Part shown: positions 42,901 to 57,699 of the stretch, piece after piece | Layout of the letters: every line of letters starts with the position of its first letter | Numbering within the stretch: position 1 is the stretch's first letter | The notes under the pieces: generated by a model | What the model saw: the letters and a program-made list of their open reading frames with translations, nothing else | Database searches by the model: none | What the model was told of the DNA's origin: nothing | IMG/VR virus record: IMGVR_UViG_3300014205_005221 | Span: 96,001 to 160,000 of that record | Direction: 5' to 3' (one strand) | DNA from: a virus | Taxonomy: Duplodnaviria; Caudoviricetes | DNA: 64,000 nt | Position numbers and translations under genes: made by a program

Positions 42901-45900
42901 GCAACGGGACTGCATAGCCGGGAGCGTACTTCTCCACTGACGGAAGAATAGGCGAAGAATGAATGTCGCCCTCGTTGACATTTTTCTGTCCAAGATACGA
43001 GAGAGAATCAGTTCCCAGCTTGTTCCCTGAAGCGTGTGCGATTGCCCAAGAACGCTTTTGGCTACTGCTTAACCCTGTAGGATGCTGCATGTTTGCGGCA
43101 AGCAAATACGCATCTACAGTCTCACTCTGCCAAAGATGCCAAGAGTCAGTGTTGGGCCACGATCCGTCAACTTTGATTCCAGCAGGAATCTCGCCTGAGA
43201 CTAACGGCGGCATCTTCTTCTTGACGAAGCCGGACGCGTTCACCGGGTTTTCAGGAGAACCCGGGTGCACCTTGCGCTTACCGTGCTGCTGAACCTTCTT
43301 GGACTCGATCTCGTAAGCCTTGTCCCACTCACCGTTGGCCCACGCGTACATCCACGCGACCAAGTCTTCCTTCTTGGTCGAGCTGTTCAGATGCTTGGCT
43401 GCAATGTTCTCGAACCCGGAATCCTTGGCCCACTTCTTCGCAGACGCCAACAGCACCGGCTTCTCGACCCAGTCCGGCCTGATGTGCCCCGCCACCATGA
43501 ACGGCTGCAACACCGGGGCGTCCGCATCGAACATGTGCGACGGCGTAGACGCGACCGGAGAGTTCTGCGGTGGCACCCAGAACATGTCACCGGACTCCAC
43601 GGCGTTCATGAACTCATCGATGTCCATGTTTGGGCCACTGGCGTCCAGCGTGACGTGCATTCCCTCGCCGTCGGTCCAGGTGCCCAGCTGCACCCCATTC
43701 CAATAACCGTCCGGCGAGACCTCATCGGGCGCGTCCGGGGTGTTGGGGACCGGGTCGACCGCAGGAGCCACCGATGGGCCGTCGTAGACGCTGTCGAGCT
43801 TGGAGACCAGCTCTTCCGGGCTGTAGACCTTCAGCACCGAGCCATCGGCATCGATCTTCTGGACGAGACCGTCAGGATCGAACTTGTAGTGCGCCACCTG
43901 CGGGGCAGCACCCGTAGACAGCAGGTTCCCCTGGCCCAGGCCAGTCAGATACACAAATTGGTTATTCTTCGCAGCAGTCTGGAAAGCCTGCGAGAACGGC
44001 GTGGTAGTCGGCGCCCACGCGTCCTGCATAGAAGCGTTGCCTGCTTTGGCTACCAGGTCGCCCAGGTACGGAGACTGCAACGCAGCGCCCGCCTGATCCT
44101 CCAAAGACGGGGGCCCGGAATCCTCCAGATCTCCCTGGAACACCGCCGTATGCGTCTGGAATGACAGAGTGTCATCCATCAGGTTCATGGCAAAAAACGA
44201 TGGTGAAATGCCCTCAGGCCCGTTCTCGCCTACCTTGAAAACGTTTCCGTTGTACTGATGCTTGTAATCGCCGATCAGGAACCCGTTAGGGTCCTTGAGC
44301 GCCTCGGTCATCCAAGAGTCCGGACTCACCTGCAACGCCGTGGGAGCAATACCCTCGCTGGTGAGATAGGGCTTCACCACATCAATATGCGCCATTGACT
44401 CACCGGATGGCGTCGCAATGAGCACCGAGCCGTCCGGGTACACGCTGTAAGTAGAAGTCCCTGAAGCGTAGTGACCGACCTGCACTCGATTCACGTAGAC
44501 AGCATTAGGATCCGTCGGAAGATCCGACAGCTTATCCCAAGTACCTAACTCAAGCATACTCTTGACAAGATCAGAATCTGTCATATGAACAGTCTGACCA
44601 GAAGACGTGTTAATGCTGTGCGCTGTTCCGTCCGGGTAGACCTTGAGCGCCATACCACCCGGAGAGGTGTAGAACCCGACCTCAGGCAACTCCGAACCCG
44701 CAAGATCCGTGCCTAATCCGGAGGTCTGGAACTTGTCACCAATCTTGTCGGCGATCTGTGCAGAACTCAAATTCTTGAAATCTCCATCGTTGATTTCAAC
44801 AACAGAGTTCTCTTCAGGATTGATCTCGAAGTAAGTTCCGCCCTCGAAATAACCATCATCGGTGTCGATGTACCCGGAAGAACTCCAGAAATGGGTTTCA
44901 CCAGTCTTGTGCGCCTGCTGGAACGCGTCCGCAAAAGAATTGTCAAAAATGCCATCCGTGTCCTTGGCATTTTTGACCAATTCCTGCAGCGAAAGAGAAC
45001 CGCCCGACACGTTGGTGGTCGGCGGACCACTGAAGAAATCTTCCACCGGGTCCGGCGCGCCCACATCTACAGGAGTGACATCCGGATCCGAATCAGGTCC
45101 AGTCACAGGCGTCGGGTTGGACGCCATGTTGTCGGCCTTGCCCTGCAGGACAGCGATAACCGCTTCCTTGAGCTTGCCGTAGTGAACCTTGCCGTTACCG
45201 CCCTTAAACGGAGCAGACAGCGGGTCCGCCTCGATGAAGGTCTTGAGATCCGCCTTGGCGAGCGGAGAGTCAATCGCCTTGAGCGGCGCCTTCACGCTAG
45301 TAGAGCTGGAATTCTTCACCGCATCGATAGCGTCGAGAATTTCCTGCTTGGTAACGCTCTTCCCTGCAACGGACACCGTAGACGGAGCAGTCGGCGCTTC
45401 CGGCGGATTGTTGAGCTGCAGAACAGCATCGTCCATGTGCTTCTGCAGCGCATCCGACACGGCCTGCTTCCACGGCGCCGAGTCCAAATGCGAATCGACA
45501 CCGAGGCTTGCTCCGAACCCGTTCTGGCCCATTCCCTTGAACGGATGTCCCGCAGGGAGATGGCCCATCAACGTGTAGAACTGACCATCCGGGTCCAATC
45601 CCAGCGGCGGGCCATCCCACAAGCTCTTGAGCAACTGCAGCTCGTTGACGCTGGCCTCGACAGTACCCAGCTGCACCTTGGGAGAATCATCCGGACCGGG
45701 CGTCTCGACAGGACCATTCTGACCTGGACGTGTCTTCACATTCAGATAGTCATTCAACCCATCGAACAGCACCTTGTTCATCTCATGAGCCGGAGTACGG
45801 CCCACGAACTCGCTCCAGTCCACGCCATACGCGAGCGGGTTATGCCCTACTTGCGCCAGCTTGCCGGACATCGTTTCACCCTGATCAAAATCGATGTCGG

Positions 45901-48900
45901 CAAAAAAGTCCTGCATCTCCTTGATCTGCGCCTGCGACGCCAGCACACCCTGGATACCCGGGCTGGCGTGCGGAACCTCGGGCAGATCCGCAGCCGGGTT
46001 CGGAACAGGAGGGTGATCTGTCTGGTGCTTATCCAGAGCATCCTGCAGCAGCGCGATCACAGCAGGCTTGAGCTTGCCGTAATGAACCTTGCCGTTGCCT
46101 CCCTTGAAAGAATCAGTCAACGGAGACGTGTTGGCGTGTCCCTGCAGGTCGACACCCGACAGCGGGGAACCAATAGCCTTGAGCGGCTTCTTCACACCGG
46201 TCTCAGACTTAGGCGACTTCTGCAGCGCGTCAAGCGCTTCCGCCACCGCCTGCGGGGTGACCGGAACACCGCCGAACGAAATGAAACCCGGAGACGCAGG
46301 CGCGTGCGTGTGTCCAGAGCCCTGCGGATCCACCGCGTGCAGCGCAGCGTGGATCGCTTCATGATCAGAAAGCCCGAGCGAGGACTGATGCTCTTCGAGA
46401 CCGTGCGACTCCTGCAGGTGCGCCACGGCGGGAGCGGCATCCAACGGCGTAGCACCGGTCTGCTGATGCGCCTTCTGCAACGCGGCAATCAGAGCAGGCT
46501 TGGTCTTGTTGTTGTAGTACGCCTTGTACGGCGCGGCTACCTCGTGGAACTTGCCTGCCGCCAGCGGGGATCCCACGCGCTTGAGGTCCGCCGCGACGTT
46601 GCCCGACGGGTTCGCAGACAGAGCGTTGATCGCCTGCTCCAGCTGCGTCGACGTCATCTCGAACCCACCGACCAACGCCTTCCCCGAACCCGGGAGAGGC
46701 TGGGTGTTCTGGATCGACACGCCCTCGTCAGTGACGTTGTTGAGGCCCGAAAGCAGCTGCGCGCGAGCAGCCGGATTGTCCGCGCCGCCGACCTTCTTCG
46801 CCTGCACACCCGCGCCCTGCGGGTTGTACTTGATCAGATCACCATCGGGCTGCAGGACGTAGAGCGTGTCCTTGGACTTGCCCGACTTGTAGACCTGCGA
46901 GCCCTCCTCCATCTGCACGGAGTGCGCGCCGACCGAAAACAACGACGGACCGTTCTTGACCACACCGCCAGGACCGCCCTCGGGCGCTTCAGGCTGGCTG
47001 AACTTCGGACGCACCGGAGCGGACATATCCTCGACGACATCACCGGTCTCAGGGTCCGTCACCGGCTCGGCATCCGCCGGGACAGCAGGCGCGCGACCGT
47101 CGAGACCGAACTCCTTGATGTCTTTTAGAATTCGCTTGTCACGGTTGACATTCAGGAGACTCTCGGCTTCCTCCACAGAGACCTTCTTGACCGAAGCAGT
47201 CTCCGAGCCTCCCGGCTCGTACGGAGAAGCGTCATCGGGCAGCGGCTGACCGCCGGTCCGCTTTCCGACGTACATGCGGACCTTGCCGCCGCCGGAGCGC
47301 TTGAAGTCGCCAAGATATCCGGTGATGTCTCCTTCGAGACCGGTCTCTTCCCACAGCTCCTTATGTGCGTTCTGCTGCGGAGAAAGATTGGCTTCGATAC
47401 CGCCCTTGGGAAACGTGTGCTCGTAACCTGCGTAGTGATCCTTGGGCTCGTAAATCCAGATGTAACCGTCAGGCTCGATCAGCGCGATGCCCGTAGCCAT
47501 CCGGCCCTCGGTGTCCGGCAACGCAGGCTCACCCGGGATCGCGACATCCGGCTTGGCCGTGAAGTCCGGCATCTTCTGACCGTTGGCGTTCTTCTTGGAC
47601 TGCGGACGATCGCCAGGCTCGGAAGTGTTCTGCGATCCCGAGGATCCCGAAGCGTTCTGCTGTCCAAGGACATTCTGCTGCTCTGGGGCCGGGATTCCCT
47701 TGGGGACAGCCTTGCCACGATCGCCGGGCTCGGCCTGATTTGGAATCGACGGAGCTTCAGGAGCAGAGCCCCCGCCCGCCTTAGACGCGTTGAACTTGCG
47801 CTGCCAATCCTCATTGAAATCGTCGTCTTCAACTTCGTCGACATCACCGAGGCTGCCGTTTGCAATCTGCTTTACCGCCACCTGTTGCAGCGGAAAACTC
47901 TTCTTAAAGTCAGACTTGTAAATTTCACCAGTTCCGTCTGGATTAACCTTTACTCCACCCCAGTTGGAATTATCAGTGAAAACGTAAGAACCCTCTGGGA
48001 GCGTTCCATTCTTCTTCAGATCCTCATTCATTTCCATGAGCGGACCCGGACCATCGGGATCCGGAACATCAGGATCGTCAGAAATTTTTGTTACTGTTCC
48101 GTACTGCTTGTGCAGAGAAAGGAACTGAGCTGTCTTAGCTTTATCGCTATCGACAGTCTCACCCTTGTGAATAGAAGTAGAAGAACCATCCTGGTGAACA
48201 ATAACCTGAGTATCTTCATCACCAGGCATGTCAACTTTATAAGTGCCTGGCTTCCAGTTCAGGTCGATAGAACCGCCCTTGGGCGTGGCCTTATCCGCCG
48301 CCTTCTGAGCCTTGTTGATGGCCTTAGCCTGCTTAGCAGAAACCTGCTTCACATTTGGCGAAGGCAGTGCTCCACCAACATCCGGAATCTTCATTCCAGT
48401 CTTAGTGTCGTAGTAATAGCCCGACACGTGCTGAAGATGACCGTTGACCATTCGCGTGTACGCCTTCACGTGCACGATCGTGGCCGCAATATAGTCGTCT
48501 CGATCTTCAGGAGACACAGTCATCGCCCACTTGGCGTACGCCTGCATTCCCTGCGCGGTCAGTCCGACCGTCGGCGCGCTAGCCGGGAAGTAGATCACCA
48601 GCGAGCAGCGACAGTTTGGGTGACGCGGAGGCGTACTCAACACCTTGGTGTAGGGAACCGGCTCAGAATCAGGAACCTCGAACGGCTCTCCGAGCGGCAC
48701 GTGCTGACCGTGCAAACGAGTACACATGGGGCACGGAGGGTTCACCAAATCGAAGCGAGCCACCCACAGCTTGTGTGCTGTCTCAGAAAGCAGCTCCGCC
48801 AACGCTTGCAGGAACTGCTCGGTAGCCGCACCACGACCCGCCTGCACCGCCGAGACAACCGCCAGCTCCGCGCGGCGCAGCATCTCCGCGAGCGCCTTAG

Positions 48901-49297
48901 CCTTGTCCTTGGCACCCTTGGCTACCGCAACCTGGCCAGCCAGGAAATCCGTGACCAGCTGCGTGCCCAGCTCCTCGCTGGAGAACACCACCGTGTCCAT
49001 GAGCGCGGTCGGCAGATCCAACGCCTCCGCCTGCGCCCGGCCGAACCGAGCACCCTCATCGACACCCGCCGACAGCGCACGACGGATGAGCGCCACCGAA
49101 CCCGCGAGCAACGCAGTGGTGACCAGCGGAGAGCCATCTTCCTCTGACTGCGCGTCGGTCAACCGCTGGCCGTAGAGCACCCGCATGTCCGCCACAAACT
49201 GCTGCTCCGCCGCAGCCGCGAACGTGCGCGAGGTATCCACCAGACCCAGCAGCTCTACGAGATCCTGCTCGATCGGCGTCAAAGCCGGGGTGGTCAC
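39932..49297 (-). CDS. Giant MuF (minor head) fusion: MuF + Nudix + internal repeats + HipA/PI3K-like kinase + probable ADP-ribosyltransferase-like domain
   Basis: 3121 aa right after portal; CPMCTRLHG...PPRHPNCRC (MuF); GGIEANLSPQQNAHKELWEETGL (Nudix box); FLFK...E...DWATANDDAHGNNFLL...IDIARSF (atypical kinase); ATHS...ILRTGGLWS...NETMIK (ART-like, weaker). Confidence 0.85.
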   Translation of the reverse strand: MTTPALTPIEQDLVELLGLVDTSRTFAAAAEQQFVADMRVLYGQRLTDAQSEEDGSPLVTTALLAGSVALIRRALSAGVDEGARFGRAQAEALDLPTALMDTVVFSSEELGTQLVTDFLAGQVAVAKGAKDKAKALAEMLRRAELAVVSAVQAGRGAATEQFLQALAELLSETAHKLWVARFDLVNPPCPMCTRLHGQHVPLGEPFEVPDSEPVPYTKVLSTPPRHPNCRCSLVIYFPASAPTVGLTAQGMQAYAKWAMTVSPEDRDDYIAATIVHVKAYTRMVNGHLQHVSGYYYDTKTGMKIPDVGGALPSPNVKQVSAKQAKAINKAQKAADKATPKGGSIDLNWKPGTYKVDMPGDEDTQVIVHQDGSSTSIHKGETVDSDKAKTAQFLSLHKQYGTVTKISDDPDVPDPDGPGPLMEMNEDLKKNGTLPEGSYVFTDNSNWGGVKVNPDGTGEIYKSDFKKSFPLQQVAVKQIANGSLGDVDEVEDDDFNEDWQRKFNASKAGGGSAPEAPSIPNQAEPGDRGKAVPKGIPAPEQQNVLGQQNASGSSGSQNTSEPGDRPQSKKNANGQKMPDFTAKPDVAIPGEPALPDTEGRMATGIALIEPDGYIWIYEPKDHYAGYEHTFPKGGIEANLSPQQNAHKELWEETGLEGDITGYLGDFKRSGGGKVRMYVGKRTGGQPLPDDASPYEPGGSETASVKKVSVEEAESLLNVNRDKRILKDIKEFGLDGRAPAVPADAEPVTDPETGDVVEDMSAPVRPKFSQPEAPEGGPGGVVKNGPSLFSVGAHSVQMEEGSQVYKSGKSKDTLYVLQPDGDLIKYNPQGAGVQAKKVGGADNPAARAQLLSGLNNVTDEGVSIQNTQPLPGSGKALVGGFEMTSTQLEQAINALSANPSGNVAADLKRVGSPLAAGKFHEVAAPYKAYYNNKTKPALIAALQKAHQQTGATPLDAAPAVAHLQESHGLEEHQSSLGLSDHEAIHAALHAVDPQGSGHTHAPASPGFISFGGVPVTPQAVAEALDALQKSPKSETGVKKPLKAIGSPLSGVDLQGHANTSPLTDSFKGGNGKVHYGKLKPAVIALLQDALDKHQTDHPPVPNPAADLPEVPHASPGIQGVLASQAQIKEMQDFFADIDFDQGETMSGKLAQVGHNPLAYGVDWSEFVGRTPAHEMNKVLFDGLNDYLNVKTRPGQNGPVETPGPDDSPKVQLGTVEASVNELQLLKSLWDGPPLGLDPDGQFYTLMGHLPAGHPFKGMGQNGFGASLGVDSHLDSAPWKQAVSDALQKHMDDAVLQLNNPPEAPTAPSTVSVAGKSVTKQEILDAIDAVKNSSSTSVKAPLKAIDSPLAKADLKTFIEADPLSAPFKGGNGKVHYGKLKEAVIAVLQGKADNMASNPTPVTGPDSDPDVTPVDVGAPDPVEDFFSGPPTTNVSGGSLSLQELVKNAKDTDGIFDNSFADAFQQAHKTGETHFWSSSGYIDTDDGYFEGGTYFEINPEENSVVEINDGDFKNLSSAQIADKIGDKFQTSGLGTDLAGSELPEVGFYTSPGGMALKVYPDGTAHSINTSSGQTVHMTDSDLVKSMLELGTWDKLSDLPTDPNAVYVNRVQVGHYASGTSTYSVYPDGSVLIATPSGESMAHIDVVKPYLTSEGIAPTALQVSPDSWMTEALKDPNGFLIGDYKHQYNGNVFKVGENGPEGISPSFFAMNLMDDTLSFQTHTAVFQGDLEDSGPPSLEDQAGAALQSPYLGDLVAKAGNASMQDAWAPTTTPFSQAFQTAAKNNQFVYLTGLGQGNLLSTGAAPQVAHYKFDPDGLVQKIDADGSVLKVYSPEELVSKLDSVYDGPSVAPAVDPVPNTPDAPDEVSPDGYWNGVQLGTWTDGEGMHVTLDASGPNMDIDEFMNAVESGDMFWVPPQNSPVASTPSHMFDADAPVLQPFMVAGHIRPDWVEKPVLLASAKKWAKDSGFENIAAKHLNSSTKKEDLVAWMYAWANGEWDKAYEIESKKVQQHGKRKVHPGSPENPVNASGFVKKKMPPLVSGEIPAGIKVDGSWPNTDSWHLWQSETVDAYLLAANMQHPTGLSSSQKRSWAIAHASGNKLGTDSLSYLGQKNVNEGDIHSSPILPSVEKYAPGYAVPLPEGFPEMDYSKVAVQGWNNSQLDTYLNHVGVSDKSVEFLTSQTPEVKAQLVALHAVAAAPEGSATFKSPAFAKQQMQDLLGKIYEDSHYNVPALLGFVHDALKLEKKTYTMNAEQPPLGGGSSSEIWQLTDEQGNPFLFKVAPEKFRAEIEHASHKLAELAGFRVAASELGTFNGKFGQFQAKVPSQGTLMNTDPVDLPISALKDLMAAHVQDWATANDDAHGNNFLLMPDGKRVMPIDIARSFVRFGKPGSMQLKVGQLSDWTTPYYDKVYKAALSGKYSDADVDSLYLASMAQARKTSSVSDASWGSTITEGLQNRTNFGWTSAKDLPDLVSQALARKNALSEDFEKFWDGIYSQLGREKPAKSQSLGKHVFSGFSEDHLTRVKEAGHAGASTFFGGNALEENYVLAQEVKTSQGGTELHMTALVRKQADKELRKWLVARAGNTVTVGDVSDSYQKTEFLSNAGATSYSQFSLAAAKTVSHHNGLGDQNFNSSHMANFNTMKADVEKKLAEVESGIYPSQFADWTEAKETYKNLLSYYDGKIKDVQRLIDFGGQSKHGDFDPFPFEPPKRPAITPEIAAPSDGFKVKKVVSYYEQGSIDDDGNMVLNGSKPSGWNSQILQSGTTYVVELPDGTEIEYRSWHDEDGVRRSQQGGLKIKVRNYDGTHTGTEAAMTALQQMGLDLSAAEDTDMELFYWRHLYGVLTDRRDQGQGKHKDVVDYVRDNLPGGTEGTPALQAKEELERWREAWSRLTSKEQVKEFVDKQKYMPKFSHPNVARPEVVGGNPYWDRFDADWEYLKNKPFATHSIGMGDMRTILRTGGLWSNEARPRMMGKVIEGQSSPPDITNGAGHFNFVRTNQTGNNFDYSQIYVNPRVLAKTTNYSFKGDGWGKIDNRKIKSDFSLEKATSIQDHNETMIKHGISVLDDIELAVFNSQSERQAFIDYLKSKGVTNIRGLTIEDRFVVAAGKAEALAKVKAAALAWNPDEEDD

Positions 49298-50922
49298 TAC
49301 GCACCTGCCATCGCGCTCAAGGCGCTGTCGATCGCGTCACGGTCAGTGTTGTCGAGAGCGACGAACTCGGGAGCGAGATACGTCGAAGCCGACGGAAGGC
49401 CCTCAGAAGACAGCTGAGAGGGCAATGCGGGCAGCTGAGGCGTAGGCGCGGGAGCACCCCCCGGAAGCGCAGCCTGACCCGGCATTCCCATGGGCTGGTT
49501 ACCCGGGATGAACTGCTGCTGCGGGGCCACACCCGGCTGCTGATCTGCAGGCACCGTAGGGATGGGCTGGAACGGCGGCTCCATCGGAGGGGCTCCGACA
49601 CCGGCCATGAAGTGCTTCACGGTCTCATCGGTCTGCTTCTTCAGCAGCTCATCGAGCTTCTCGTACTCGATGTCAAGGCCCATCTCACCCGCCATGTACT
49701 TCTCCAGCTCCAGCATGAACCGGCGAGTCACGTTGGCGCCCTGGCCAGCAGAAGAAAGCTTGTCAAACGTGTTCTTGATGGCCTCTTTTTGCTCTTCAGA
49801 AAACGGGCCAAACTTCAGCTTTGGATACTTGTCGTTCTTAAAGTTCCAGTCAATGAATCGCGGAGTGAGCCAATCGTTAAAAATAGTTTCTAACTCGTTA
49901 ATAATGACATTGACCAGCACCAAATACATCGAGTCGTTAGGGCCGCCGAACGACACCAACGGAGAACCGCCACCCTGCTGATCGTCCAGGAACGGCGCCA
50001 ACACCGACTTACTCATCTGGCTGTTGTGGTGATTGATGAAATCCATGAACGGGAACTCACCCGGGGAACGGCCGAGATCCTCCACCGACCAGCCAATATC
50101 CGGAACCGTCACCGACTGCGCAAGGCCGAAGTCCTGCAACGCCATGCGGAACTGGCTGATCTCCTTGGGAGAGGCCGACGTCGGGTACTTGCCCAGACGC
50201 GACCCCACCGCACGGTGCTGCGCCGCGAGGTGCGCCAAGTAGTACAGCTTGATCTTCTTATCGTAGTGATAAAAAGCAGCGTTAAAGTAAGAAACTCCGT
50301 AGAACGGATTCTCTTCCTCGGAGCACGCGTAATAGATCGAGTTCTTGGCTTCGATCTTCTCGTCGATGACTCGGCCATTCGGAGTCACGGTGCGCTGACG
50401 GAACCCGTCGTACTCACCCTGCTCATCGACCGCGAACGACACAGTATCCGAAGGACGATACGCGATCTTGTCGAGCGTGTACTTACCCTCCAGCGGACCC
50501 TTGCGCGGGCGCGTGTAGACCAGCTCGAAAGGCGCAAACCCGTCCACCGTCGCCAGCAGCATCTGCGAGACAACTCGATTGAACGGCGTACGCATACCGC
50601 CATTCACCGCAGGCAAGGTGTAGAGATTCGTGATGAACTCCGCCTCCTTGTCCCCGCCATCCGCCGGAACCCAGGACGCACGCTTCGCCGCCGCGCGGGC
50701 GGGCATGGTGAGCAGCCGGTACAGCGCACGCGCCTGGCCATCTTGGCGACGCATCTCTGTCAGCTGCTTCACCGTGGGAACGTCGTTGCGCCCCAGCAGG
50801 TACGAACCCTTGGAGTCGAAGCCCTCGGCGAACGGCATACCCGCCAGCCGAATACCCATCTCCTCATTAAGCTCAGAGTTTTTGGGCTTGACCATTTCGG
50901 TGACATTGTCGGGCTTTGCCAC
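49297..50922 (-). CDS. Portal protein (Mu gp29/DUF935-like)
   Basis: 541 aa after terminase; GFAPFELVY, ENPFYGVS, INHHNSQMSKSVLA. Confidence 0.9.
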   Translation of the reverse strand: MAKPDNVTEMVKPKNSELNEEMGIRLAGMPFAEGFDSKGSYLLGRNDVPTVKQLTEMRRQDGQARALYRLLTMPARAAAKRASWVPADGGDKEAEFITNLYTLPAVNGGMRTPFNRVVSQMLLATVDGFAPFELVYTRPRKGPLEGKYTLDKIAYRPSDTVSFAVDEQGEYDGFRQRTVTPNGRVIDEKIEAKNSIYYACSEEENPFYGVSYFNAAFYHYDKKIKLYYLAHLAAQHRAVGSRLGKYPTSASPKEISQFRMALQDFGLAQSVTVPDIGWSVEDLGRSPGEFPFMDFINHHNSQMSKSVLAPFLDDQQGGGSPLVSFGGPNDSMYLVLVNVIINELETIFNDWLTPRFIDWNFKNDKYPKLKFGPFSEEQKEAIKNTFDKLSSAGQGANVTRRFMLELEKYMAGEMGLDIEYEKLDELLKKQTDETVKHFMAGVGAPPMEPPFQPIPTVPADQQPGVAPQQQFIPGNQPMGMPGQAALPGGAPAPTPQLPALPSQLSSEGLPSASTYLAPEFVALDNTDRDAIDSALSAMAGA

Positions 50923-50938
50923 CGACTACCTCCAAAGA

Positions 50939-52834
50939 TTACAGTCCGGGCAACTTAAAGCTGTTGCCTGTCTGCATGCCGCGCCACACATCCTCCGCTC
51001 CAACAGGAGCATCACCGGCCGCGCTCGACACCCAAAACAGGTCTTGGGGGTCTTCGTCTGGATCCGTCGTCTCCTCGGCCCCGCCCGTCGTCACGGCGGT
51101 GATGACCGCGCCGCAGACAGCATCGGATAAATCCTTAGACCCGCCCGGAGGATGATCGATCTTGCGCTTCTTGGGATCCTGCTGAAGATGCAGCAGCTCA
51201 TTGCGCAGCAGACGGCTGTAGGGAATCTCAACCCGACCCTCTTCGACCAGGCTGCGGAACTGCCGGTACGGCTCATCGGTGCGGTCCATCGACAACAGCG
51301 GAGCCTCAATGCCGCCGACCTGAAGGATCTGTCGGTTGTCGACGCTCTGCCATCCGTCCATCGACGCCGCGCGGATCGGGAAGCCTCGCTGCTGCAGCTC
51401 GAACACCAACTGTCGATAGAAGCGAAGCTGGATCTCGCGGGGAGGATCCGATTCCAGGTCCGCCTCCAGAGCAATTGCGGTGTCCACCTTCACCACCGGG
51501 CGCTCATCCCAGACGAGCTGACCGTTGTACTCCGGATCCTTGCGTGCGAACTTGTCCCAGCTCACGACGTGCGCCATGGCGAACCCGGCACGATCACCGT
51601 TAAGCGCAAGGTCGCAGTGAGTGGCATACGTAGCGCCGGGGATAGGCTTCAGCGACTGCGGAATGACAAAGCGAGGGTGCCATCCACCCTGCGCGAACTC
51701 CCAGTGGACCTCGATCTCGGGAGTGTCGACCATCGCCGAGTCGACCGAATTCTCGGAACGGAAATACGGCGGGAGCATGGTGCGCTCGGGCATGCACAGA
51801 TACGCCGCGCGAGCCCATTCCGGTTCCGCCTCGAAGTCCGCCACCAGCTCTTCAGGAACCGGGACCGGAGAGATCTCCTTCTCCAGCTCCACGAATGTCG
51901 TGCGCGCCAGCAGCGGATTGAACTCCCACGACGGCATAGGGCCGACGATGAAGTGCTTAGAATCCGCACCCTTGCGCTCGATGTCTTGCTTAGACTCAGC
52001 ATGCAGCTGCAGAATCGGCGATCCGTGATACCGGGGATACGAAATGCGAACGTTCTTGAATGTTCGTGGAAAACGAGTCACCGCCGAGGAACGCAGCATC
52101 TTGATGATGCCCTCCGCAGAACGCATCGGGGTGCGGGTACCGCCGCTTCCCGTGCGGGCGATGTCATCAGCAGTGCGGAACGCATCGATCTCGTCCGCCA
52201 CACCGAGAATCAGGTTCAGACCCTCCTGGGTCTCTGCATCCGAGGATCCAGACACCGACTCCAGGCCACGCGCCCACTCGATCGTATTCTTCTTAGGATC
52301 ACACTTGTCCGCAAACCACCCCTTGCGGACAATTCGAGTCATAGGCTCGAAATACGCACGGCGTGCCTGATCCTTGGTAGAAGCCACGTTGAGCATGTGG
52401 ATCGACTCCGAGGACGGCATGCCGAAGTAATCACGCGGGTCCTTGAGACACAGCAGCAGATACGAGATGCGCAACGCCATCAGGCGAGCAATCAAGTCCT
52501 TGCCGCCACCCTTGCCGACCAGCAACGTCAGGAAGTTCGCCATCGGAATCGGCGCCCAGTAATCACCGAACTCCGCCTGCATGTGCGGGTACAGCTCCGG
52601 GTAATAGACCCGTTCCGCAGCCCGGAGCGCCGTAGCCTGCGGGACAGACAACGGAGACATGCCGATGTAATGCTTGTCCGAGATGAAGACGTCCAGCGGG
52701 ACAGGCTCTTCCGCGAACAAATCATCGCAGACGCCCCGCGCCGTCGACAGACGCTCTTCCGAACCGAGCTGGCGCAGCCATTGAGCCGGAGTCAGAGCGT
52801 CATTCTGCTCAACGGCACGTAGACGAGGGGGCAT
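50939..52834 (-). CDS. terL: Terminase large subunit
   Basis: GKGGGKD Walker A, VADEID Walker B, HCDLA and DHPPGGSKDLSDA nuclease motifs. Confidence 0.93.
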   Translation of the reverse strand: MPPRLRAVEQNDALTPAQWLRQLGSEERLSTARGVCDDLFAEEPVPLDVFISDKHYIGMSPLSVPQATALRAAERVYYPELYPHMQAEFGDYWAPIPMANFLTLLVGKGGGKDLIARLMALRISYLLLCLKDPRDYFGMPSSESIHMLNVASTKDQARRAYFEPMTRIVRKGWFADKCDPKKNTIEWARGLESVSGSSDAETQEGLNLILGVADEIDAFRTADDIARTGSGGTRTPMRSAEGIIKMLRSSAVTRFPRTFKNVRISYPRYHGSPILQLHAESKQDIERKGADSKHFIVGPMPSWEFNPLLARTTFVELEKEISPVPVPEELVADFEAEPEWARAAYLCMPERTMLPPYFRSENSVDSAMVDTPEIEVHWEFAQGGWHPRFVIPQSLKPIPGATYATHCDLALNGDRAGFAMAHVVSWDKFARKDPEYNGQLVWDERPVVKVDTAIALEADLESDPPREIQLRFYRQLVFELQQRGFPIRAASMDGWQSVDNRQILQVGGIEAPLLSMDRTDEPYRQFRSLVEEGRVEIPYSRLLRNELLHLQQDPKKRKIDHPPGGSKDLSDAVCGAVITAVTTGGAEETTDPDEDPQDLFWVSSAAGDAPVGAEDVWRGMQTGNSFKLPGL

Positions 52835-52858: not shown

Positions 52859-53518
52859 CTAAGCGGTCATCGCGTAGTAGTCCAGAGGACCCGGAATCCA
52901 CAGCTCCGATGCCAGCCGGTACAACTCACGGCTGAACGAATCCGACGCAGCTCCGTACTTCTCGCAAAACACAAACCCCTCGGCCAACAGCTCCGGGATG
53001 CTCATCGAAGCACGCTGCGAGTACTTCCGAGCAGCCGCAGCGCCCGAGATCCCCGACGCCTTCTCCAAGCGTCGCAACACCGCCTGATACCCCGCCTCCA
53101 GCGAACTCGGGTACCGACGATGGATGGGCACCTGGAACAGCAGGTGCCCCCACTCGTGCGTAAGAATGTCTTCCCAACAATCTCCTACGAGAGCGTTGGT
53201 TTCACGCAGTCCTAGAAGCTCGACCTCAGACAACGGGTTCAGCAGTTTGCGCTTGTTGATCTGCAAAACTCCCTCAACGGTAGTCATGCAGAAGGTAGAA
53301 GCATGCGCGTAGTCGTCGCCTAGATCTTTAGCGTGAACCTTCTTAATGCCTGCGGCCAAGTACGGCCACGCTTCACTCAAGTCGTACAGGTGCTGACGAA
53401 GCTGAGGAAGACGCGAGTACTTCCGCAACTGCCAGCTAAACGGGATGAGCAACTCATGCCCGGGAGGACGCGCCGCGCTCGCAATCGGCTTCACCGACGG
53501 AAGCAACGACATAGACAT
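52859..53518 (-). CDS. HExxH zincin-like metalloprotein
   Basis: ILTHEWGHLL...YS.RA...ELLAEGF. Confidence 0.7.
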   Translation of the reverse strand: MSMSLLPSVKPIASAARPPGHELLIPFSWQLRKYSRLPQLRQHLYDLSEAWPYLAAGIKKVHAKDLGDDYAHASTFCMTTVEGVLQINKRKLLNPLSEVELLGLRETNALVGDCWEDILTHEWGHLLFQVPIHRRYPSSLEAGYQAVLRRLEKASGISGAAAARKYSQRASMSIPELLAEGFVFCEKYGAASDSFSRELYRLASELWIPGPLDYYAMTA

Positions 53519-53541
53519 GCGCCCGTTATACCGTACCTACC

Positions 53542-54135
53542 TCATTGTTGTGCAAGTTTCGCCCATACAATTACGTTCGAGAGGTAACGATGGGCTGCGC
53601 GATCCAGCGTTCCGCCGCACGTGATCAAGCGCAGCTCGGCACCAGAAGTGTTCTGGTACACATCAGCTGTGGGAAATTCATTCTTGTCAATAGTTGACGT
53701 TCGGTACACCTCGAACGCCGCGACAGTCCCATCCTCGCGCTGAACCTCAATGCGATCACCCTCGACCACGCTCTTGAGGTTGGCGAAGATTCCCTGCTCA
53801 CCGCCACCGTTGACGTGCCCCAAGATGACGGCCGGTCCCTTAGCGCCCGGACGAGGGCCAAGGTTGTACCAGGACGCCAGCATGGGCTGCTCGACCGGAG
53901 GCTCCAAATGTCCGCCCCGAGCATCGAGTCCCAGCCCGTCAACCATGACAGGACCATCGATGTTGCGCGCGAACACCGATACATTCACCGGACGCGGCTG
54001 CACACCAGGCAGAACATCAGCAGGCGCAGACTGCGCGGGCGTGCTCGGCGCGTCCGGAGCCGCTGCAGTCCCACACCCAGCCAGGACTGCAGCGAACACC
54101 AGAACAGAGGCCAAAAGCCCCGCTACACGACTCAC
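53542..54135 (-). CDS. Class F sortase, lipoprotein
   Basis: LAGC lipobox; WY.LGPRPG.KG.AVILGHV; LRLITCGG...YLSNVIV. Confidence 0.9.
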   Translation of the reverse strand: MSRVAGLLASVLVFAAVLAGCGTAAAPDAPSTPAQSAPADVLPGVQPRPVNVSVFARNIDGPVMVDGLGLDARGGHLEPPVEQPMLASWYNLGPRPGAKGPAVILGHVNGGGEQGIFANLKSVVEGDRIEVQREDGTVAAFEVYRTSTIDKNEFPTADVYQNTSGAELRLITCGGTLDRAAHRYLSNVIVWAKLAQQ

Positions 54136-54737
54136 TCCGTCGAACCGTCCCCGGTCTCAGGCGCATCGTTGGGAACCACGACAACATCCGAGCCGCCTGG
54201 AACCACCGTGACCGTAGTCAGAGGCGGAGCTGTGGTGGTCGGGGTGACAGTCACAGTGGTCGGCGGAGCCGGAGCGCACGCCTTCAACTTGTCATCGATC
54301 AGTAGATTGAGCTTGGCCTGCGCGTCTGCCAGAACCTTCTTCAGCTCCGTCAAAGGCGTGGTGCTTGCAGCATTGATAAACGCCGTCACCGCAGCAACGA
54401 AATCACCCTGAGCCTTGGTCAGCTTGGTCTGCAGGTCCAACAGAACCGCAACCGACGCCTTCGCTGCAACCGCCGAAGCGTACGCATCTCCAGCCTTCGC
54501 AAGCACATCCTGCTTCAAAAGAACCTGCGTCTGCAAACCCGCGAGCGCGGTATCCGCGTCAGCCAACTTGTCGGAAGCGTCGACTACCACCTGAGCCTGA
54601 GCCACCACACGAACTGTCGCGGTCACACACCCAGCAGAGTCCGGGCCAACGGCAGGTGCTGCTGCCGCCAGCGGAGCAAACACTGACAGCGAAGCGGCTA
54701 CCAAGCCGCTCACCACCAGCAAACGGAACTGCTTCAT
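54132..54737 (-). CDS. Secreted coiled-coil protein with Pro/Thr stalk and APETG motif (candidate sortase substrate)
   Basis: Signal peptide (AAA|AP); PAPPTTVTVTPTTTAPP; C-terminal VPNDAPETGDGSTE. Confidence 0.75.
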   Translation of the reverse strand: MKQFRLLVVSGLVAASLSVFAPLAAAAPAVGPDSAGCVTATVRVVAQAQVVVDASDKLADADTALAGLQTQVLLKQDVLAKAGDAYASAVAAKASVAVLLDLQTKLTKAQGDFVAAVTAFINAASTTPLTELKKVLADAQAKLNLLIDDKLKACAPAPPTTVTVTPTTTAPPLTTVTVVPGGSDVVVVPNDAPETGDGSTE

Positions 54738-54785
54738 CTCACGGTCTCCTTGATCGGGGATGAGACCTTACGGGTAGCTATTCGG

Positions 54786-55469
54786 CTATGCAGTCTCACT
54801 TACACAAGTGTAAGTAGGAAAGCTGTCGTCCGCGTTTGATCGTGTGCAGCGGATGTTTTCCAACGGGCTAGAACTAGGAAAAATGAACTCCGCTGGCGGC
54901 TGACCCGGAGCACCCGCAGGTCCCTGCGCCCCAGGCGGACCCGTGTCGCCCTGCGCCCCCTGCACGCCCTGAGGACCCTGCACGCCCTGGATACCCTGCG
55001 CGCCAGCGGTGCCCGGCTCACCCGGAGTACCGGCCGTACCTGGCTCACCAGGCGTACCCGCGATACCCGGCTCACCAGGAACACCCTGCGGGCCCGTAGC
55101 ACCGGGGATGCCCGGAATGGGGGCGATCTTGACCCGCTCAGCCTGCGAACACAGACCGGACGGCAGAGAACTCTTGGCATCGGAGTCCGCGCACGCTTCA
55201 GAGATTTGGCTCGCCAGCGTCTTAGCCTGCCCAGCGGTGGCATCGCGCTGCTGCACCACCAAATCCTTCTGGGTGGTGACATTTTCGACCTGGCGGTTGC
55301 TGGTCTTCACGGACAACACCAACGCCGTAGCCGCAACGATGAGAGCAACCCCGACCAGCACCGGCCACAGACGCTTGAGCAGCGAAAGAAAATCCGGACG
55401 GTTATGTCGAGAACGATTTTTGGGACGGTTCGCGGGTACGCCCGCAGGCATCGGGAACGCTCGGGTCAT
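54786..55469 (-). CDS. Membrane-anchored collagen-like protein
   Basis: One TM segment, coiled coil with Cys pair, (GXY)n tract. Confidence 0.8.
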
Positions 55470-55915
55470 GTCAAGTCACCACAGTTCGGAGGCGGTGGCA
55501 GAGGTGCGGCTGCCCGAACCCTCTCCAATTCACGGATTGCAGAAATATACTTCTGAGTCTCACGAGCAGCCGCTTCACGATCACCAGCCAGCGTGGCGGT
55601 CAACAGCTCCACCTGAGCCTGCGTCTCCACGCGCTGAGCTTCACTGCGATCAGTCAGCGCCTGAGAAACAGCTTTATTGTATGTAATCTGGCAGGAAGTA
55701 GTTCGATAGTAACTAATTCCGGAAAGAACAACTAAGATGAGGATGGCTAATCCAACAAACGAACGGAAAAGCTCAAACTTGGTAGCCCTCACCCTCTTAC
55801 CTCCGGTCGTTGTTGCATCAGCCTGGGCAGACCGAATGGCCAGCCAACATGTAGCCCAACCCAGCACAAAGCCGCCACCAGACCACAGCAGTGCGGAGTA
55901 CAGGGAAGGAGCCAT
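55466..55915 (-). CDS. Membrane protein
   Basis: 149 aa, two TM segments plus coiled coil. Confidence 0.7.
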
Positions 55916-56151
55916 TAGTCGACCTTTGCCGGTTCCGGATCTTCCTCTTCTTTATCCTCTTCAGGATTGCCGTTCTTGTCCTTGTTGGACCTACGCGACA
56001 GGGCTAACGCTCCACCAACAATAGCCATAAAAATACCATTGATAGCAACGTCCGGACTGTAGTCCTCAACAATGAACTGCGCCGCAAAATTAATGGCCCA
56101 GACCACAGTGACGACAACAATGATCGCCGTCGCCAGTGGCTTAGGGATCAC
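55915..56151 (-). CDS. Small two-TM membrane protein (holin-like)
   Basis: 78 aa; charged C-terminal tail. Confidence 0.65.
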   Translation of the reverse strand: MIPKPLATAIIVVVTVVWAINFAAQFIVEDYSPDVAINGIFMAIVGGALALSRRSNKDKNGNPEEDKEEEDPEPAKVD

Positions 56152-56525
56152 TCTTTCGTCCTATGCTCAGGCCGATTAACCGGCGGAACCTCATACCGAA
56201 GTCGCCACGCTCCCCACAGCATCAGACTGACGCCGATCAAGCTGAGAGCAAGGCGATAATGAGCATGATCGCCAATGTGGTCAACTTCAGTACCGATCAC
56301 GATCATGGCAAACAAACACTGAGCAGTCAGTCGAGCCTGCTGTCCTGAAGCTCGGGCATTCAGCACTAACCGTGGTGTCCACACGATTAACGCAAGTCCC
56401 AACAACATCGTGATTACTCGTACAATGTCGACCCAAAAAACAAGAGGCCAGGCAAACGGGGTGCCAGGTCCATCAGGAGCACAGAGTGCGTAGCAATCCC
56501 TTGCGTATAAGATTGTCGGTAACAC
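56148..56525 (-). CDS. Membrane protein
   Basis: 125 aa, three TM segments. Confidence 0.6.
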   Translation of the reverse strand: MLPTILYARDCYALCAPDGPGTPFAWPLVFWVDIVRVITMLLGLALIVWTPRLVLNARASGQQARLTAQCLFAMIVIGTEVDHIGDHAHYRLALSLIGVSLMLWGAWRLRYEVPPVNRPEHRTKE

Positions 56526-56557: not shown

Positions 56558-56821
56558 TTAGGATTTATTGAGCTTCTTGGACATGCCAAACTGCTTTAAA
56601 GCTGCCTGAGGCGAATCAAACTTCTGCTTGTAATTGTCCCAGGATCCAGACCACTTGTCGCCAATACGCTTCACCACGGCCACCTTCGCGCCCTTGGCAT
56701 CCACGATCTGGCGCTGGCCCGGAGGAAGCGTCGGGTTGGACGCAAACCGATAGCCACTCGACGTTGTGGAATCCGCCGAGCTGTCCTTCTTCTTGTTCAC
56801 CCACGGAGGTGCGGCGCCCAT
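56558..56821 (-). CDS. Hypothetical basic protein
   Basis: 87 aa, coupled. Confidence 0.6.
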   Translation of the reverse strand: MGAAPPWVNKKKDSSADSTTSSGYRFASNPTLPPGQRQIVDAKGAKVAVVKRIGDKWSGSWDNYKQKFDSPQAALKQFGMSKKLNKS

Positions 56822-57699
56822 CAGCCGTTGCCCTTCGATTTGGGCGCCTTGGCCGGGTTCTTGATCGGCCCCTGCGCGATGTACTGCCGATAGAGACGCT
56901 TCACAGAGGCGGGAACCATCGCCGTAAGCCCGAGAGCCTGCGCCGCCTTCACCACCTCAGCTGCAGCAGCCCCACGCTTGCCATCCGGCAACCGCTCAAT
57001 CTGTCCGAGAGCGCTTTTCAGCTTTCCCTCATTGCCGATGTCCCCAAAAACCTTGCCGCCCTTGTACGTCTTCTCTCGGGCAACGTCTTTGAGCGAGGAA
57101 CGAAGCTTGTCCGCAGTGGCCTTAGCCCCTGCCGAACTACCTGTCTTCGCTACGGTCTTCAGAGCATCGCCACCAGGGGCACCCTGACCCAGCTGCGTGC
57201 CGATCGGCTTCCGATACCGACGAGCACCCGCCATCGTGCGAACCCGAGCCAGCGCGATCTCTTCGCTGTCACCGGTAGACGCCTTGCGCAATTCGAGAAC
57301 GCCCGACAACGCGCCCGCACGGCGTGACGCTGACGCGGCCACGAACTCCATACGAACCTTCTGCGGCGCGCCGAACTTCACATCGTCAACCGACGTGCCC
57401 GGAGCAGCCACGGTGTAGGGAATCCGCAAGAATCCCTCAGATTCGGAGTCATCACACGAAACAATGACGTGATCAGTCCACAACTCTTTAATGTACGCAT
57501 GCATCAAAGGGTCGCGAACAACTCGCTCTGGCTCAATCTCATCTGAGACAGCATGCAAGGTGGACTTATACGCTTCCCTGCGACGCTGCCTCAGTGCATA
57601 CCACGCAGACCGCACCAACTCAGTGTTAAACCGAGAAACTGGTGCGGCCTGCGCCGCAGCAACTTTCTGCAGCGCCGTTAAATCCGACGCCTCAGACAT
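56821..57699 (-). CDS. Hypothetical protein, possibly head-associated
   Basis: 292 aa; RVRTMAGARRYRKPIG motif. Confidence 0.65.
   Translation of the reverse strand: MSEASDLTALQKVAAAQAAPVSRFNTELVRSAWYALRQRRREAYKSTLHAVSDEIEPERVVRDPLMHAYIKELWTDHVIVSCDDSESEGFLRIPYTVAAPGTSVDDVKFGAPQKVRMEFVAASASRRAGALSGVLELRKASTGDSEEIALARVRTMAGARRYRKPIGTQLGQGAPGGDALKTVAKTGSSAGAKATADKLRSSLKDVAREKTYKGGKVFGDIGNEGKLKSALGQIERLPDGKRGAAAAEVVKAAQALGLTAMVPASVKRLYRQYIAQGPIKNPAKAPKSKGNG

What the first reader, a model, noticed from the sequence alone, without database searches (positions are those of the whole stretch)
53542..54737. Phage-encoded class F sortase with a coupled candidate substrate
Seen: an intact lipoprotein sortase (His, TC, Asn motifs) translationally coupled (GTGA) to a secreted coiled-coil protein with a Pro/Thr stalk ending in APETG-DGSTE. 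The substrate lacks the hydrophobic and basic tail of canonical sorting signals. Known: sortases covalently link LPxTG-like proteins to peptidoglycan or other proteins and are bacterial enzymes, not standard phage genes. Inference: a phage surface-display system (receptor masking, superinfection exclusion, envelope remodelling) or a protein-ligation system using a non-canonical tail-less signal.
Basis: partly seen in the sequence, partly recalled or inferred. Interest (0 to 1): 0.8.

Follow-up and report, generated by a model that had tools for sequence, protein, structure and literature searches.

The report
Phage sortase with tail-less partner
A large phage of actinobacteria carries its own cell-wall "stapling" enzyme (a class F sortase), coupled to a secreted coiled-coil protein that keeps the enzyme's recognition tag but has lost the usual membrane-retention tail; this tail-less layout is the usual one in other phage copies of the cassette.

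Summary
At 53542-54135(-) lies an intact, lipobox-bearing class F-type sortase. Its GTG start overlaps (GTGA) the stop of a 201-aa secreted protein at 54132-54737(-) that ends ...VVPNDAPETGDGSTE.

The contig is a 186-kb phage genome with 40 tRNAs and no integrase. The same pair sits upstream of terminase and portal in at least five independent metagenomic relatives. In those relatives the partner ends with the same PNDAPETGDGST motif followed by a hydrophobic segment and a basic tail. So APETG is a genuine sorting motif, and the window copy lost exactly the tail through a clean in-frame deletion of about 96 nt.

The motif generalises to P-x5-T-G-[GD]-G next to class F sortases. Loci in bacterial genomes and unsorted metagenome contigs mostly keep the full signal (14 full to 1 tail-less, and 28 to 5). 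Viral loci in IMG/VR are mostly tail-less (22 of 24 distinct loci with a readable partner end). The tail-less form is therefore a stable natural state, not simply decay.

Function is untested. The most likely one is covalent display of a disulfide-stapled helical hairpin on the infected cell's wall. Phage sortases were first reported in an October 2026 preprint (class B only). This scan has noted class F tail-less pairs on other DNA before.

The parts
54132..54737 (-). Partner (candidate substrate), 201 aa. It has a cleavable Sec signal peptide (about residues 1-27), a long helical hairpin (residues 35-154) bounded by C37 and C154, a Pro/Thr-rich stalk (155-188) and a C-terminal sorting motif, with no hydrophobic or basic tail.
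   Evidence: ORF and translation; homologues P0002-P0004; alignment A2 with invariant C37, C154, P189 and T195; AF2 model with pLDDT 82.
54135..54173 (-). Sorting motif PNDAPETGDGSTE (P189-E201), an instance of the class F motif P-x5-T-G-[GD]-G. The predicted cleavage site is between T195 and G196.
   Evidence: The motif is conserved in L004, L006, L007, L010 and P0004, where it is followed by a transmembrane segment and a basic tail. The same motif type stands next to class F sortases in bacterial, viral and metagenome loci.
54132..54135 (-). GTGA stop/start overlap that couples partner and sortase. It is also the junction of the roughly 96-nt in-frame deletion that removed the hydrophobic and basic tail.
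   Evidence: Sequence; nucleotide alignment with four relatives.
54746..54751 (-). Shine-Dalgarno-like AAGGAG, 8 nt upstream of the partner's ATG.
   Evidence: Read from the sequence.
53542..54135 (-). Lipoprotein class F-type sortase, 197 aa. Key residues: lipobox LAGC (C21, nt 54073-54084), H107 (53815-53817), R169 (53629-53631), C173 (53617-53619) and N187 (53575-53577).
   Evidence: Pfam and NCBIfam matches; invariant columns in A1; AF2 model and Foldseek matches to sortases. A public gene call starts it at V45 (153 aa, P0005), but relatives conserve the lipobox-bearing N-terminus.
54786..55469 (-). Membrane-anchored collagen-like protein of 227 aa (N-terminal transmembrane segment, coiled coil, G-x-y repeats), directly upstream of the partner. 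It is conserved in the clade.
   Evidence: PF01391 E 9.7e-16; tblastn matches in L004, L006, L007, L010 and L013.
55466..56525 (-). Three overlapping small membrane-protein genes (149, 78 and 125 aa). The 78-aa protein, with two transmembrane segments and a charged C-terminus, is holin-like and 68-83% identical in relatives. With the genes above they form a conserved envelope block that ends with the sortase.
   Evidence: ORFs; weak PHROG membrane-protein hit for the 149-aa protein; synteny and identity in L007, L010 and L013. The holin assignment is an inference from topology only.
49297..52834 (-). Portal (49297-50922) and terminase large subunit (50939-52834), downstream of the sortase. They serve as phage context markers.
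   Evidence: Portal_Mu E 1.6e-27; terminase 40% identical to that of Microbacterium phage Magritte.

Best explanation
This is a working two-gene envelope cassette of a large, apparently lytic actinophage.

Proposed mechanism:
1. The partner is exported by Sec and its signal peptide is removed.
2. The sortase is a lipoprotein held on the outer face of the membrane.
3. The sortase recognises the partner's C-terminal P-x5-T-G-[GD]-G motif (PNDAPETGDGSTE), cleaves between T195 and G196 with C173, and passes the protein to an amine acceptor. That acceptor is most probably the peptidoglycan precursor or the wall.
4. As a result, a disulfide-stapled helical hairpin on a Pro/Thr stalk is fixed covalently to the infected cell's surface.

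In this phage the membrane-retention part of the signal (hydrophobic segment plus basic tail) was deleted in frame while the whole recognition motif and the coupling were kept. The same tail-less layout is stable in many other viral class F cassettes, and it also occurs in a bacterial chromosome. I therefore infer that class F pairs can work without retention.

Status of each step:
- Shown: the genes, motifs, homology, synteny, the deletion, and the distribution of tail states.
- Inferred: cleavage, the acceptor, and the benefit to the phage. The likely benefit is surface remodelling such as exclusion of further phages or protection of progeny from adsorbing to debris.
For: - The sortase is intact and keeps every invariant column of its family, and it has a confident sortase fold.
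- The pair lies in the same position, upstream of terminase, portal and a giant NUDIX protein, in independent assemblies L006, L007/L008, L009 (sortase at the contig edge, partner not seen), L010/L011 and L013.
- Partners in L004, L006, L007, L010 and P0004 end with V(V/I)P(N/S)D(A/P)P(E/D)TGDGST followed by a transmembrane segment and a basic tail.
- The window differs by a clean in-frame deletion of just that tail. The deletion keeps GTGA and the complete conserved motif.
- P189 and T195 are invariant and G196 is at least 90% conserved across 15 partners that share only 20-43% identity.
- The same motif precedes class F sortases in bacterial genomes and in metagenome contigs.
- 22 IMG/VR viral loci have tail-less partners ending 1-10 residues after TG (TD in one, L023). 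These loci fall in several sortase clades and have endolysin, terminase or portal genes adjacent.
- A tail-less pair also sits in an Actinomycetospora chromosome (L075).
- Sortases in the clade are 46-62% identical while the passenger domains are swapped, as expected for an enzyme-plus-tag cassette with variable cargo.
Against: - Nothing here shows expression, cleavage or anchoring.
- Established work on S. aureus protein A (Schneewind and colleagues, 1992-93; from my own knowledge, not re-read here) found that removing the hydrophobic domain or charged tail releases the protein instead of anchoring it.
- In the window's own clade, six of the seven loci with a readable partner end keep the tail. 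The window copy could therefore be a recent loss of function not yet purged.
- The NCBIfam class F score is 3.7 bits under the cut-off.
- The family has Asn where other sortases have the catalytic Arg, and no enzyme of this Asn type has been characterised in the papers I could read.
- I could not check reads across the deletion junction.
Confidence: 0.55

Rival explanations
1. The cassette is cognate but newly crippled in this phage. Loss of the hydrophobic and basic tail means the partner is simply secreted and is processed little or not at all, so the pair is on its way to decay or has only a soluble-protein role.
For: The window is the only tail-less member of its well-supported clade. The classical requirement for the retention tail is established knowledge for class A systems. 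No other protein with a sorting signal is encoded on the 186-kb contig, so the sortase would have no other phage client.
Against: The deletion is in frame, ends exactly after the conserved motif and preserves the GTGA coupling. Both ORFs are intact, and the sortase retains all invariant residues. Tail-less partners persist across diverse viral lineages and in a bacterial chromosome, which is not expected for a dead state.
Confidence: 0.25
2. The sortase does act on the tag, but the product is not a wall-anchored protein. Tail-less partners might be ligated to another protein, for example the membrane-anchored collagen-like protein encoded directly upstream. They might stay as a long-lived acyl-enzyme on the lipoprotein sortase. 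Or they might merely be trimmed by hydrolysis.
For: There is one-to-one translational coupling, and the conserved gene block consists of membrane proteins. Class C sortases are known to ligate protein to protein (established knowledge). Without retention, lipid II capture would be less favoured.
Against: No pilin-like lysine motif or acceptor was identified. Cellular relatives with complete signals look like ordinary wall-anchoring substrates.
Confidence: 0.15
3. The pair is bacterial DNA that was mis-assembled or mis-binned into a phage contig, or the ORFs are chance.
For: The contig comes from a fragmented MAG of 398 contigs. No cultured phage among 50,697 records has a match.
Against: The same pair has the same phage neighbours in at least five independent assemblies. 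The contig is uniformly phage-like: 40 tRNAs on one strand, plus terminase, portal and giant virion-type proteins. The rest of the MAG and a same-genus genome have no class F sortase.
Confidence: 0.03

Closest known systems
Cellular class F sortase loci of Actinomycetota (NCBIfam NF033748 / InterPro IPR042001; for example the five S. coelicolor and four Actinoplanes missouriensis SrtF genes)
   Same: The catalytic domain is the same, with GH(V/I)NGG, LRLITCGG and Y-x-x-N motifs, at 44-49% identity to named Pseudonocardiales enzymes. The operon layout is also the same: a partner directly upstream ending in P-x5-T-G-[GD]-G.
   Different: This copy is phage-borne. It is anchored by a lipobox, whereas I detected a lipobox in few of the sampled cellular loci (crude regex). 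Its partner lacks the transmembrane segment and basic tail that most cellular partners keep. The physiological role of cellular class F enzymes is itself unknown; a quadruple knockout in A. missouriensis had no phenotype (PMC13251363).
Sortase B plus substrate modules of gut huge phages (Yuan & Chen, bioRxiv 10.64898/2026.10.24.761521, Oct 2026)
   Same: A phage-encoded sortase stands with a signal-peptide-bearing partner immediately upstream that carries a PxTG-type motif. The proposed role is display of phage proteins on the host wall.
   Different: Those modules are class B, have His-Cys-Arg, occur in phages of Bacillota from animal guts, and have complete sorting signals. This one is class F-type, has Asn at the Arg position, belongs to a 186-kb phage of actinobacteria, and is tail-less.
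Canonical tripartite cell-wall sorting signal (S. aureus protein A / SrtA paradigm)
   Same: [quoted passage not shown]
   Different: The motif is P-x5-T-G rather than LPXTG. The hydrophobic domain and the charged tail, both defining parts of the signal, are absent.
Propionibacterium (Cutibacterium) acnes SrtF, the only class F sortase characterised biochemically (Di Girolamo et al. 2019, cited in PMC8225981 and PMC13251363)
   Same: Same nominal class.
   Different: That enzyme is reported as a housekeeping sortase that recognises LPXTG.

Membership tests
Sortase superfamily (PF04203) | Significant match to the sortase domain profile | tested here: met
   E 4.9e-20, 72 bits against a cut-off of 26.6.
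Sortase superfamily (PF04203) | Eight-stranded sortase beta-barrel fold | tested here: met
   AF2 model with pLDDT 87.5. The top Foldseek PDB hits are all sortases, E about 3e-8 and TM about 0.55.
Sortase superfamily (PF04203) | Catalytic His and Cys (TLxTC-type motif) | tested here: met
   H107 in LGHVNGG and C173 in LRLITCGG. Both are invariant in 25 sequences.
Sortase superfamily (PF04203) | Catalytic Arg at the start of strand beta-8 | tested here: not met
   The start of beta-8 (residues 186-194 in the model) carries the invariant N187. The only invariant Arg is R169, four residues before the Cys. Alignment to the MAG's own class E sortase places its Arg opposite a non-conserved column. 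This is a trait of the whole class F family, not a lesion of this copy. The structural equivalence is inferred from the model's secondary structure, not from a superposition.
Class F sortase (NCBIfam NF033748) | Score at or above the curated cut-off (166 bits) | tested here: inconclusive
   162.3 bits, E 6.4e-48, covering profile positions 9-154 of 155. The next best class scores 28 bits. The nearest named relatives are annotated as class F sortases.
Class F sortase (NCBIfam NF033748) | Extracytoplasmic, membrane-tethered enzyme | tested here: met
   N-terminal signal with lipobox L-A-G-C at residues 18-21, conserved as L(A/V)GC in relatives. This rests on sequence only.
Class F sortase (NCBIfam NF033748) | Transpeptidase activity on its partner | not testable with these tools
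   Needs biochemistry.
Sortase substrate with tripartite cell-wall sorting signal | N-terminal secretion signal | tested here: met
   Basic n-region, hydrophobic core and an Ala-rich cleavage region within residues 1-27, aligned with the signal peptides of 14 relatives.
Sortase substrate with tripartite cell-wall sorting signal | Conserved sorting motif near the C-terminus | tested here: met
   PNDAPETG. P189 and T195 are invariant and G196 is at least 90% conserved. The motif is homologous to that of full signals in relatives.
Sortase substrate with tripartite cell-wall sorting signal | Hydrophobic segment after the motif | tested here: not met
   Only five residues (DGSTE) follow TG before the stop. 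The segment is deleted relative to four relatives.
Sortase substrate with tripartite cell-wall sorting signal | Positively charged C-terminal tail | tested here: not met
   Absent. The C-terminus is acidic.
Phage sortase-substrate module (as defined in the 2026 preprint) | Sortase gene on a bona fide phage genome with the candidate substrate immediately upstream | tested here: met
   Phage context; adjacency and coupling; recurrence in related phage contigs.
Phage sortase-substrate module (as defined in the 2026 preprint) | Class B sortase with a His-Cys-Arg triad | tested here: not met
   The best class is F. Class B does not appear among the NCBIfam hits.

The most novel reading that the evidence does not exclude
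Class F sortases read an extended tag, P-x5-T-G-[GD]-G, and can process it on freely secreted proteins with no membrane-retention tail. Actinophages have repeatedly adopted this minimal form as a portable module: a lipoprotein enzyme plus a tagged, swappable cargo, independent of the host's own class E system. With it they fix proteins of their own onto the infected cell's envelope. If true, this would give the orphan sortase class its first cognate signal and physiological context. It would also offer a second, independent tag-and-enzyme pair for protein ligation.
Probability: 0.4. Interest if true: 0.75.

Novelty: new variant of a known kind. Interest (0 to 1): 0.62.

Why it matters
Sortases were thought of as cellular enzymes, and the first report of them in phages is a one-month-old preprint limited to class B in gut phages. 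This is a different class, in phages of actinobacteria.

Two further points follow from the comparison:
1. Class F is the one sortase class whose signal and role are still unassigned in actinomycetes. The conserved gene pairs point to a cognate tag, P-x5-T-G-[GD]-G, that can now be tested directly.
2. Most viral copies dispense with the hydrophobic and basic tail that textbook models treat as essential. Either class F works differently, or phages use the enzyme for something other than classical wall anchoring.

The cargo is swapped between close relatives while the enzyme and the tag are kept. That pattern is typical of surfaces under an arms race.

Tried and rejected
- Complex prediction of the sortase domain with the partner's last 42 residues gave no verdict (score 0.26, mark 0.32). 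It counts neither for nor against binding.
- phmmer of the sortase against PDB sequences found nothing at E <= 0.01, so no class F structure was available for residue-level comparison.
- Fold searches with the partner's hairpin returned only generic helical hairpins: efflux-pump adaptors, colicin receptor-binding domains, and RipA/PcsB-type coiled coils. None reached E <= 0.001, so no function could be drawn from them.
- I considered a -1 frameshift at the GTGA that would fuse the partner to the sortase, so that the sortase's signal peptide served as the missing hydrophobic tail. I rejected it: there is no slippery heptamer, relatives with full tails have the same overlap, and a fusion would leave the catalytic domain in the cytoplasm.
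- I searched the whole contig and the MAG for other proteins with the ETGDGS tag or a generic sorting signal. None lies on the phage contig.
- tblastn of the sortase against 50,697 cultured-phage records gave no match, and there was no PHROG match.
- The look-up of P0086 found nothing on record.
- The first regex for the motif (P-x4-TG) was wrong by one residue and found almost nothing. It was corrected to P-x5-TG.
- The automatic tail classifier mislabelled L031-33 and L046 as tail-less. I corrected these by eye (L031-33; L046).

Full report
WHAT IS THERE

On the - strand, a 201-aa ORF (54132-54737) and a 197-aa ORF (53542-54135) overlap by GTGA.

The downstream protein matches the Pfam sortase domain (E 4.9e-20). 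Its best NCBIfam match is class_F_sortase at 162.3 bits, just under the 166-bit cut-off, and all other classes score below 30 bits. It starts with a basic and hydrophobic signal ending in the lipobox L-A-G-C. It carries GHVNGG (H107), LRLITCGG (R169, C173) and Y-L-S-N (N187). All of these are invariant columns in an alignment with 24 relatives.

An AlphaFold model (pLDDT 87.5) is a sortase barrel, and all of its top PDB matches are sortases.

N187 stands where other sortases carry the catalytic Arg, at the start of beta-8. This is a family-wide trait and not damage to this copy.

A public gene call starts the sortase at V45 and would remove the signal peptide (P0005). The conserved lipobox-bearing N-termini of relatives argue for the GTG at 54135 instead.

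The upstream protein has a Sec signal peptide. It then forms a confidently predicted long helical hairpin (residues 35-154) closed by two invariant cysteines, followed by a Pro/Thr stalk and the C-terminus VVPNDAPETGDGSTE, after which comes the stop.

CONTEXT

The window is part of the 186-kb contig C1 of a fragmented MAG; the next largest contig is 49 kb.
- C1 carries 40 tRNA genes, all on the same strand.
- It has a terminase 40% identical to that of Microbacterium phage Magritte and related to the roughly 130-kb Streptomyces phages.
- It has a Mu-type portal and giant ORFs of more than 3,000 residues.
- No tyrosine integrase or serine recombinase lies on C1.

It is therefore a large, apparently non-temperate actinophage genome and not a prophage.

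The rest of the MAG has only one other sortase, on C305, which I read as class E from its motifs (not scored against the class models). A 98%-complete genome of the same genus has no class F match. Phage-to-MAG binning is not proof of host.

THE PAIR IS A CONSERVED PHAGE MODULE

The closest sortase homologues (55-68% identity) lie on metagenomic contigs from different samples. They share one gene order: small membrane proteins, a collagen-like membrane protein, the partner, the sortase, terminase, portal, and a giant NUDIX-bearing protein.

tblastn shows that the block of eight genes ending with the sortase is syntenic in L007, L010 and L013, and partly in L004 and L006. Its 78-aa two-transmembrane protein is 68-83% identical in L007, L010 and L013.

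Within this clade the sortases are 46-62% identical, while the partners' passenger domains range from 39% identity to no detectable similarity. The passengers are a hairpin alone, a hairpin plus an Excalibur domain, or other folds plus Excalibur. Enzyme and tag are kept; the cargo is exchanged.

APETG IS A REAL SORTING MOTIF, AND THE WINDOW LOST THE TAIL

Partners in L004, L006, L007, L010 and P0004 end with V(V/I)P(N/S)D(A/P)P(E/D)TGDGST, followed by about 20 hydrophobic residues and a basic tail. That is a complete sorting signal.

A nucleotide alignment shows that the window matches them up to ...TCGACGGAG and resumes at the TGA/GTG of the sortase start. Roughly 96 nt encoding exactly the hydrophobic and basic tail are missing. 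The deletion is in frame, and both the whole conserved motif and the coupling are retained.

On a sortase tree the window's clade is strongly supported, and every other member with a known state has the full signal. The loss is therefore recent and specific to this lineage.

THE WIDER PATTERN

A scan of IMG/VR found 32 viral loci with class F-type sortases.
- In 22 of them the ORF that ends at the sortase start stops 1-10 residues after a TG in a shared context (TD in one, L023). Examples are VPVGGVETGGGPAA-stop, VPVGPAETGGM-stop and VPVGAVDTGLA-stop.
- Only two distinct loci carry full signals: L012/13, which belongs to the window's clade, and L031-33.
- Genes next to the tail-less cassettes include endolysins (L019, L028, L041), a terminase (L029), a portal (L022) and an exonuclease (L021), which confirms viral context.

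In bacterial genomes of the same class, the upstream ORF carries the same motif type followed by a transmembrane segment and an Arg-rich tail in 14 loci. It is tail-less in one, L073. One of the 14, L061, comes from G006, a genome flagged as unpublished. L051 and L055 (G042, G029) were uninformative. The 52-of-121 tally of genomes with class F sortases also includes the flagged genomes.

Two further chromosomal examples gave one full signal (L074) and one tail-less (L075, Actinomycetospora). Among 80 unsorted metagenome loci, 28 were full and 5 tail-less; 1 more was ambiguous, and the other 46 gave no call (no motif found, a contig edge, or no sortase motif recognised by my script).

Two conclusions follow:
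1. P-x5-T-G-[GD]-G is the tag that travels with class F sortases. P189 and T195 are invariant and G196 nearly so, across 15 partners with 20-43% identity.
2. The tail-less version is a persistent natural state, strongly enriched in viral copies.

These counts are not phylogenetically independent and the samples were chosen by sortase similarity, so I give them as a pattern and not as a test.

MECHANISM, AND WHAT IS INFERRED

The mechanism proposed is:
- Sec export of both proteins.
- Lipoprotein tethering of the enzyme.
- Recognition of the extended tag and thioacyl formation at C173 after cleavage of T195-G196.
- Transfer to an amine, most plausibly on the peptidoglycan precursor.

This follows from established sortase chemistry; none of it was shown here.

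The classical view from S. aureus protein A is that the hydrophobic and charged tail is needed for anchoring. On that view the window's partner would be secreted (rival 1). Against this stand the precise in-frame deletion, the intact enzyme and the persistence of tail-less pairs elsewhere. Ligation to another acceptor, or a stoichiometric acyl-enzyme complex, remains possible (rival 2).

The position of the cassette suggests an envelope function tied to the infection cycle. It lies at the end of a conserved block of membrane proteins that includes a holin-like gene, and in other phages it sits beside endolysins. The specific benefit (exclusion, masking, lysis timing) is open.

An earlier unverified scan note proposed SGGTANRA-N7-ATG phage promoters. 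One such match (53526-53533, - strand) sits exactly 7 nt before the ATG of the next gene. If real, a new transcription unit would start just after the sortase, and the pair would belong with the upstream membrane genes.

COMPARISON WITH THE LITERATURE

Reviews and recent papers assign signals to classes A-E. They leave class F without a role, apart from the LPXTG-recognising P. acnes enzyme. A quadruple srtF deletion in Actinoplanes missouriensis had no phenotype.

A bioRxiv preprint of 24 October 2026 reports sortase B with upstream full-signal substrates in 24 gut huge phages. It states that sortases had not been documented in viruses. I found no paper linking sortases with actinobacteriophages, and no cultured phage record matches this sortase.

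Earlier notes of this scan describe the same kind of class F tail-less pair on other genomes (e1-5326838, e1-5744311). I reached the pattern independently here, but it is not new to the scan.

VERDICT

The feature is real and well supported as a cognate phage sortase cassette. Its activity and purpose are untested. It is a new variant of a kind that has only just been described: a different sortase class, a different host phylum and a non-canonical tail-less signal.

Noticed in passing
window 52859-53518 (-): The 219-aa ORF between the sortase and the terminase contains an HExxH motif (THEWGH) and has no signal peptide. It has no Pfam or PHROG hit, but ESM Atlas neighbours are phage 'Pro-Pro endopeptidase' / lethal-factor-like zinc peptidase clusters and MuF-fused domains. 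Homologues follow the sortase in L012/L013. It is probably a head-associated metallopeptidase and not part of the sortase module.
   Followed up: partly
window 53526-53533 (-): CGGTATAA lies exactly 7 nt upstream of the ATG of the 219-aa gene. This fits the SGGTANRA-N7-ATG pattern that another first-stage note proposed as a phage promoter. There are 30 matches in the window against 14.7 expected, most on the - strand between 21 and 41 kb.
   Followed up: partly
window 54786-56525 (-) and 56558-57699 (-): A conserved run of six genes precedes the partner gene, making an eight-gene block that ends with the sortase: 292 aa, 87 aa, then three small membrane proteins and a collagen-like membrane protein. 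The 78-aa protein with two transmembrane segments is 68-83% identical in relatives and looks like a holin. No endolysin was recognised nearby in this window.
   Followed up: partly
window 39932-49297 (-) and 9293-19171 (-): Two giant ORFs of 3,121 and 3,292 aa. Relatives of the first carry a NUDIX domain and follow the portal gene, like polyvalent MuF-type head proteins.
   Followed up: no
G000:C1 8988-9813, 25659-27310, 170051-175117 (outside the window): 40 tRNA genes in three clusters, all on the - strand of the 186-kb phage contig.
   Followed up: no
window 53542-54003 (-), protein P0005: The public protein set holds this sortase as a 153-aa product starting at V45, without its signal peptide and lipobox. 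This is probably a mis-called start.
   Followed up: yes
L019, L028, L041 (IMG/VR loci), ORFs 100-300 nt after the sortase: In three viral loci with tail-less partners, the gene after the sortase is an endolysin (PHROG 880 and others). In L005 a Peptidase_M15_4 gene follows within about 1.1 kb. This is a recurrent link between class F cassettes and lysis modules.
   Followed up: partly
L075 8001-8633 and 7243-7998: An Actinomycetospora chromosome carries a transmembrane-anchored class F sortase with no lipobox. Its upstream Thr/Gly-rich partner ends HVPSGGVDTGN-stop, a tail-less pair in a clearly cellular context.
   Followed up: partly
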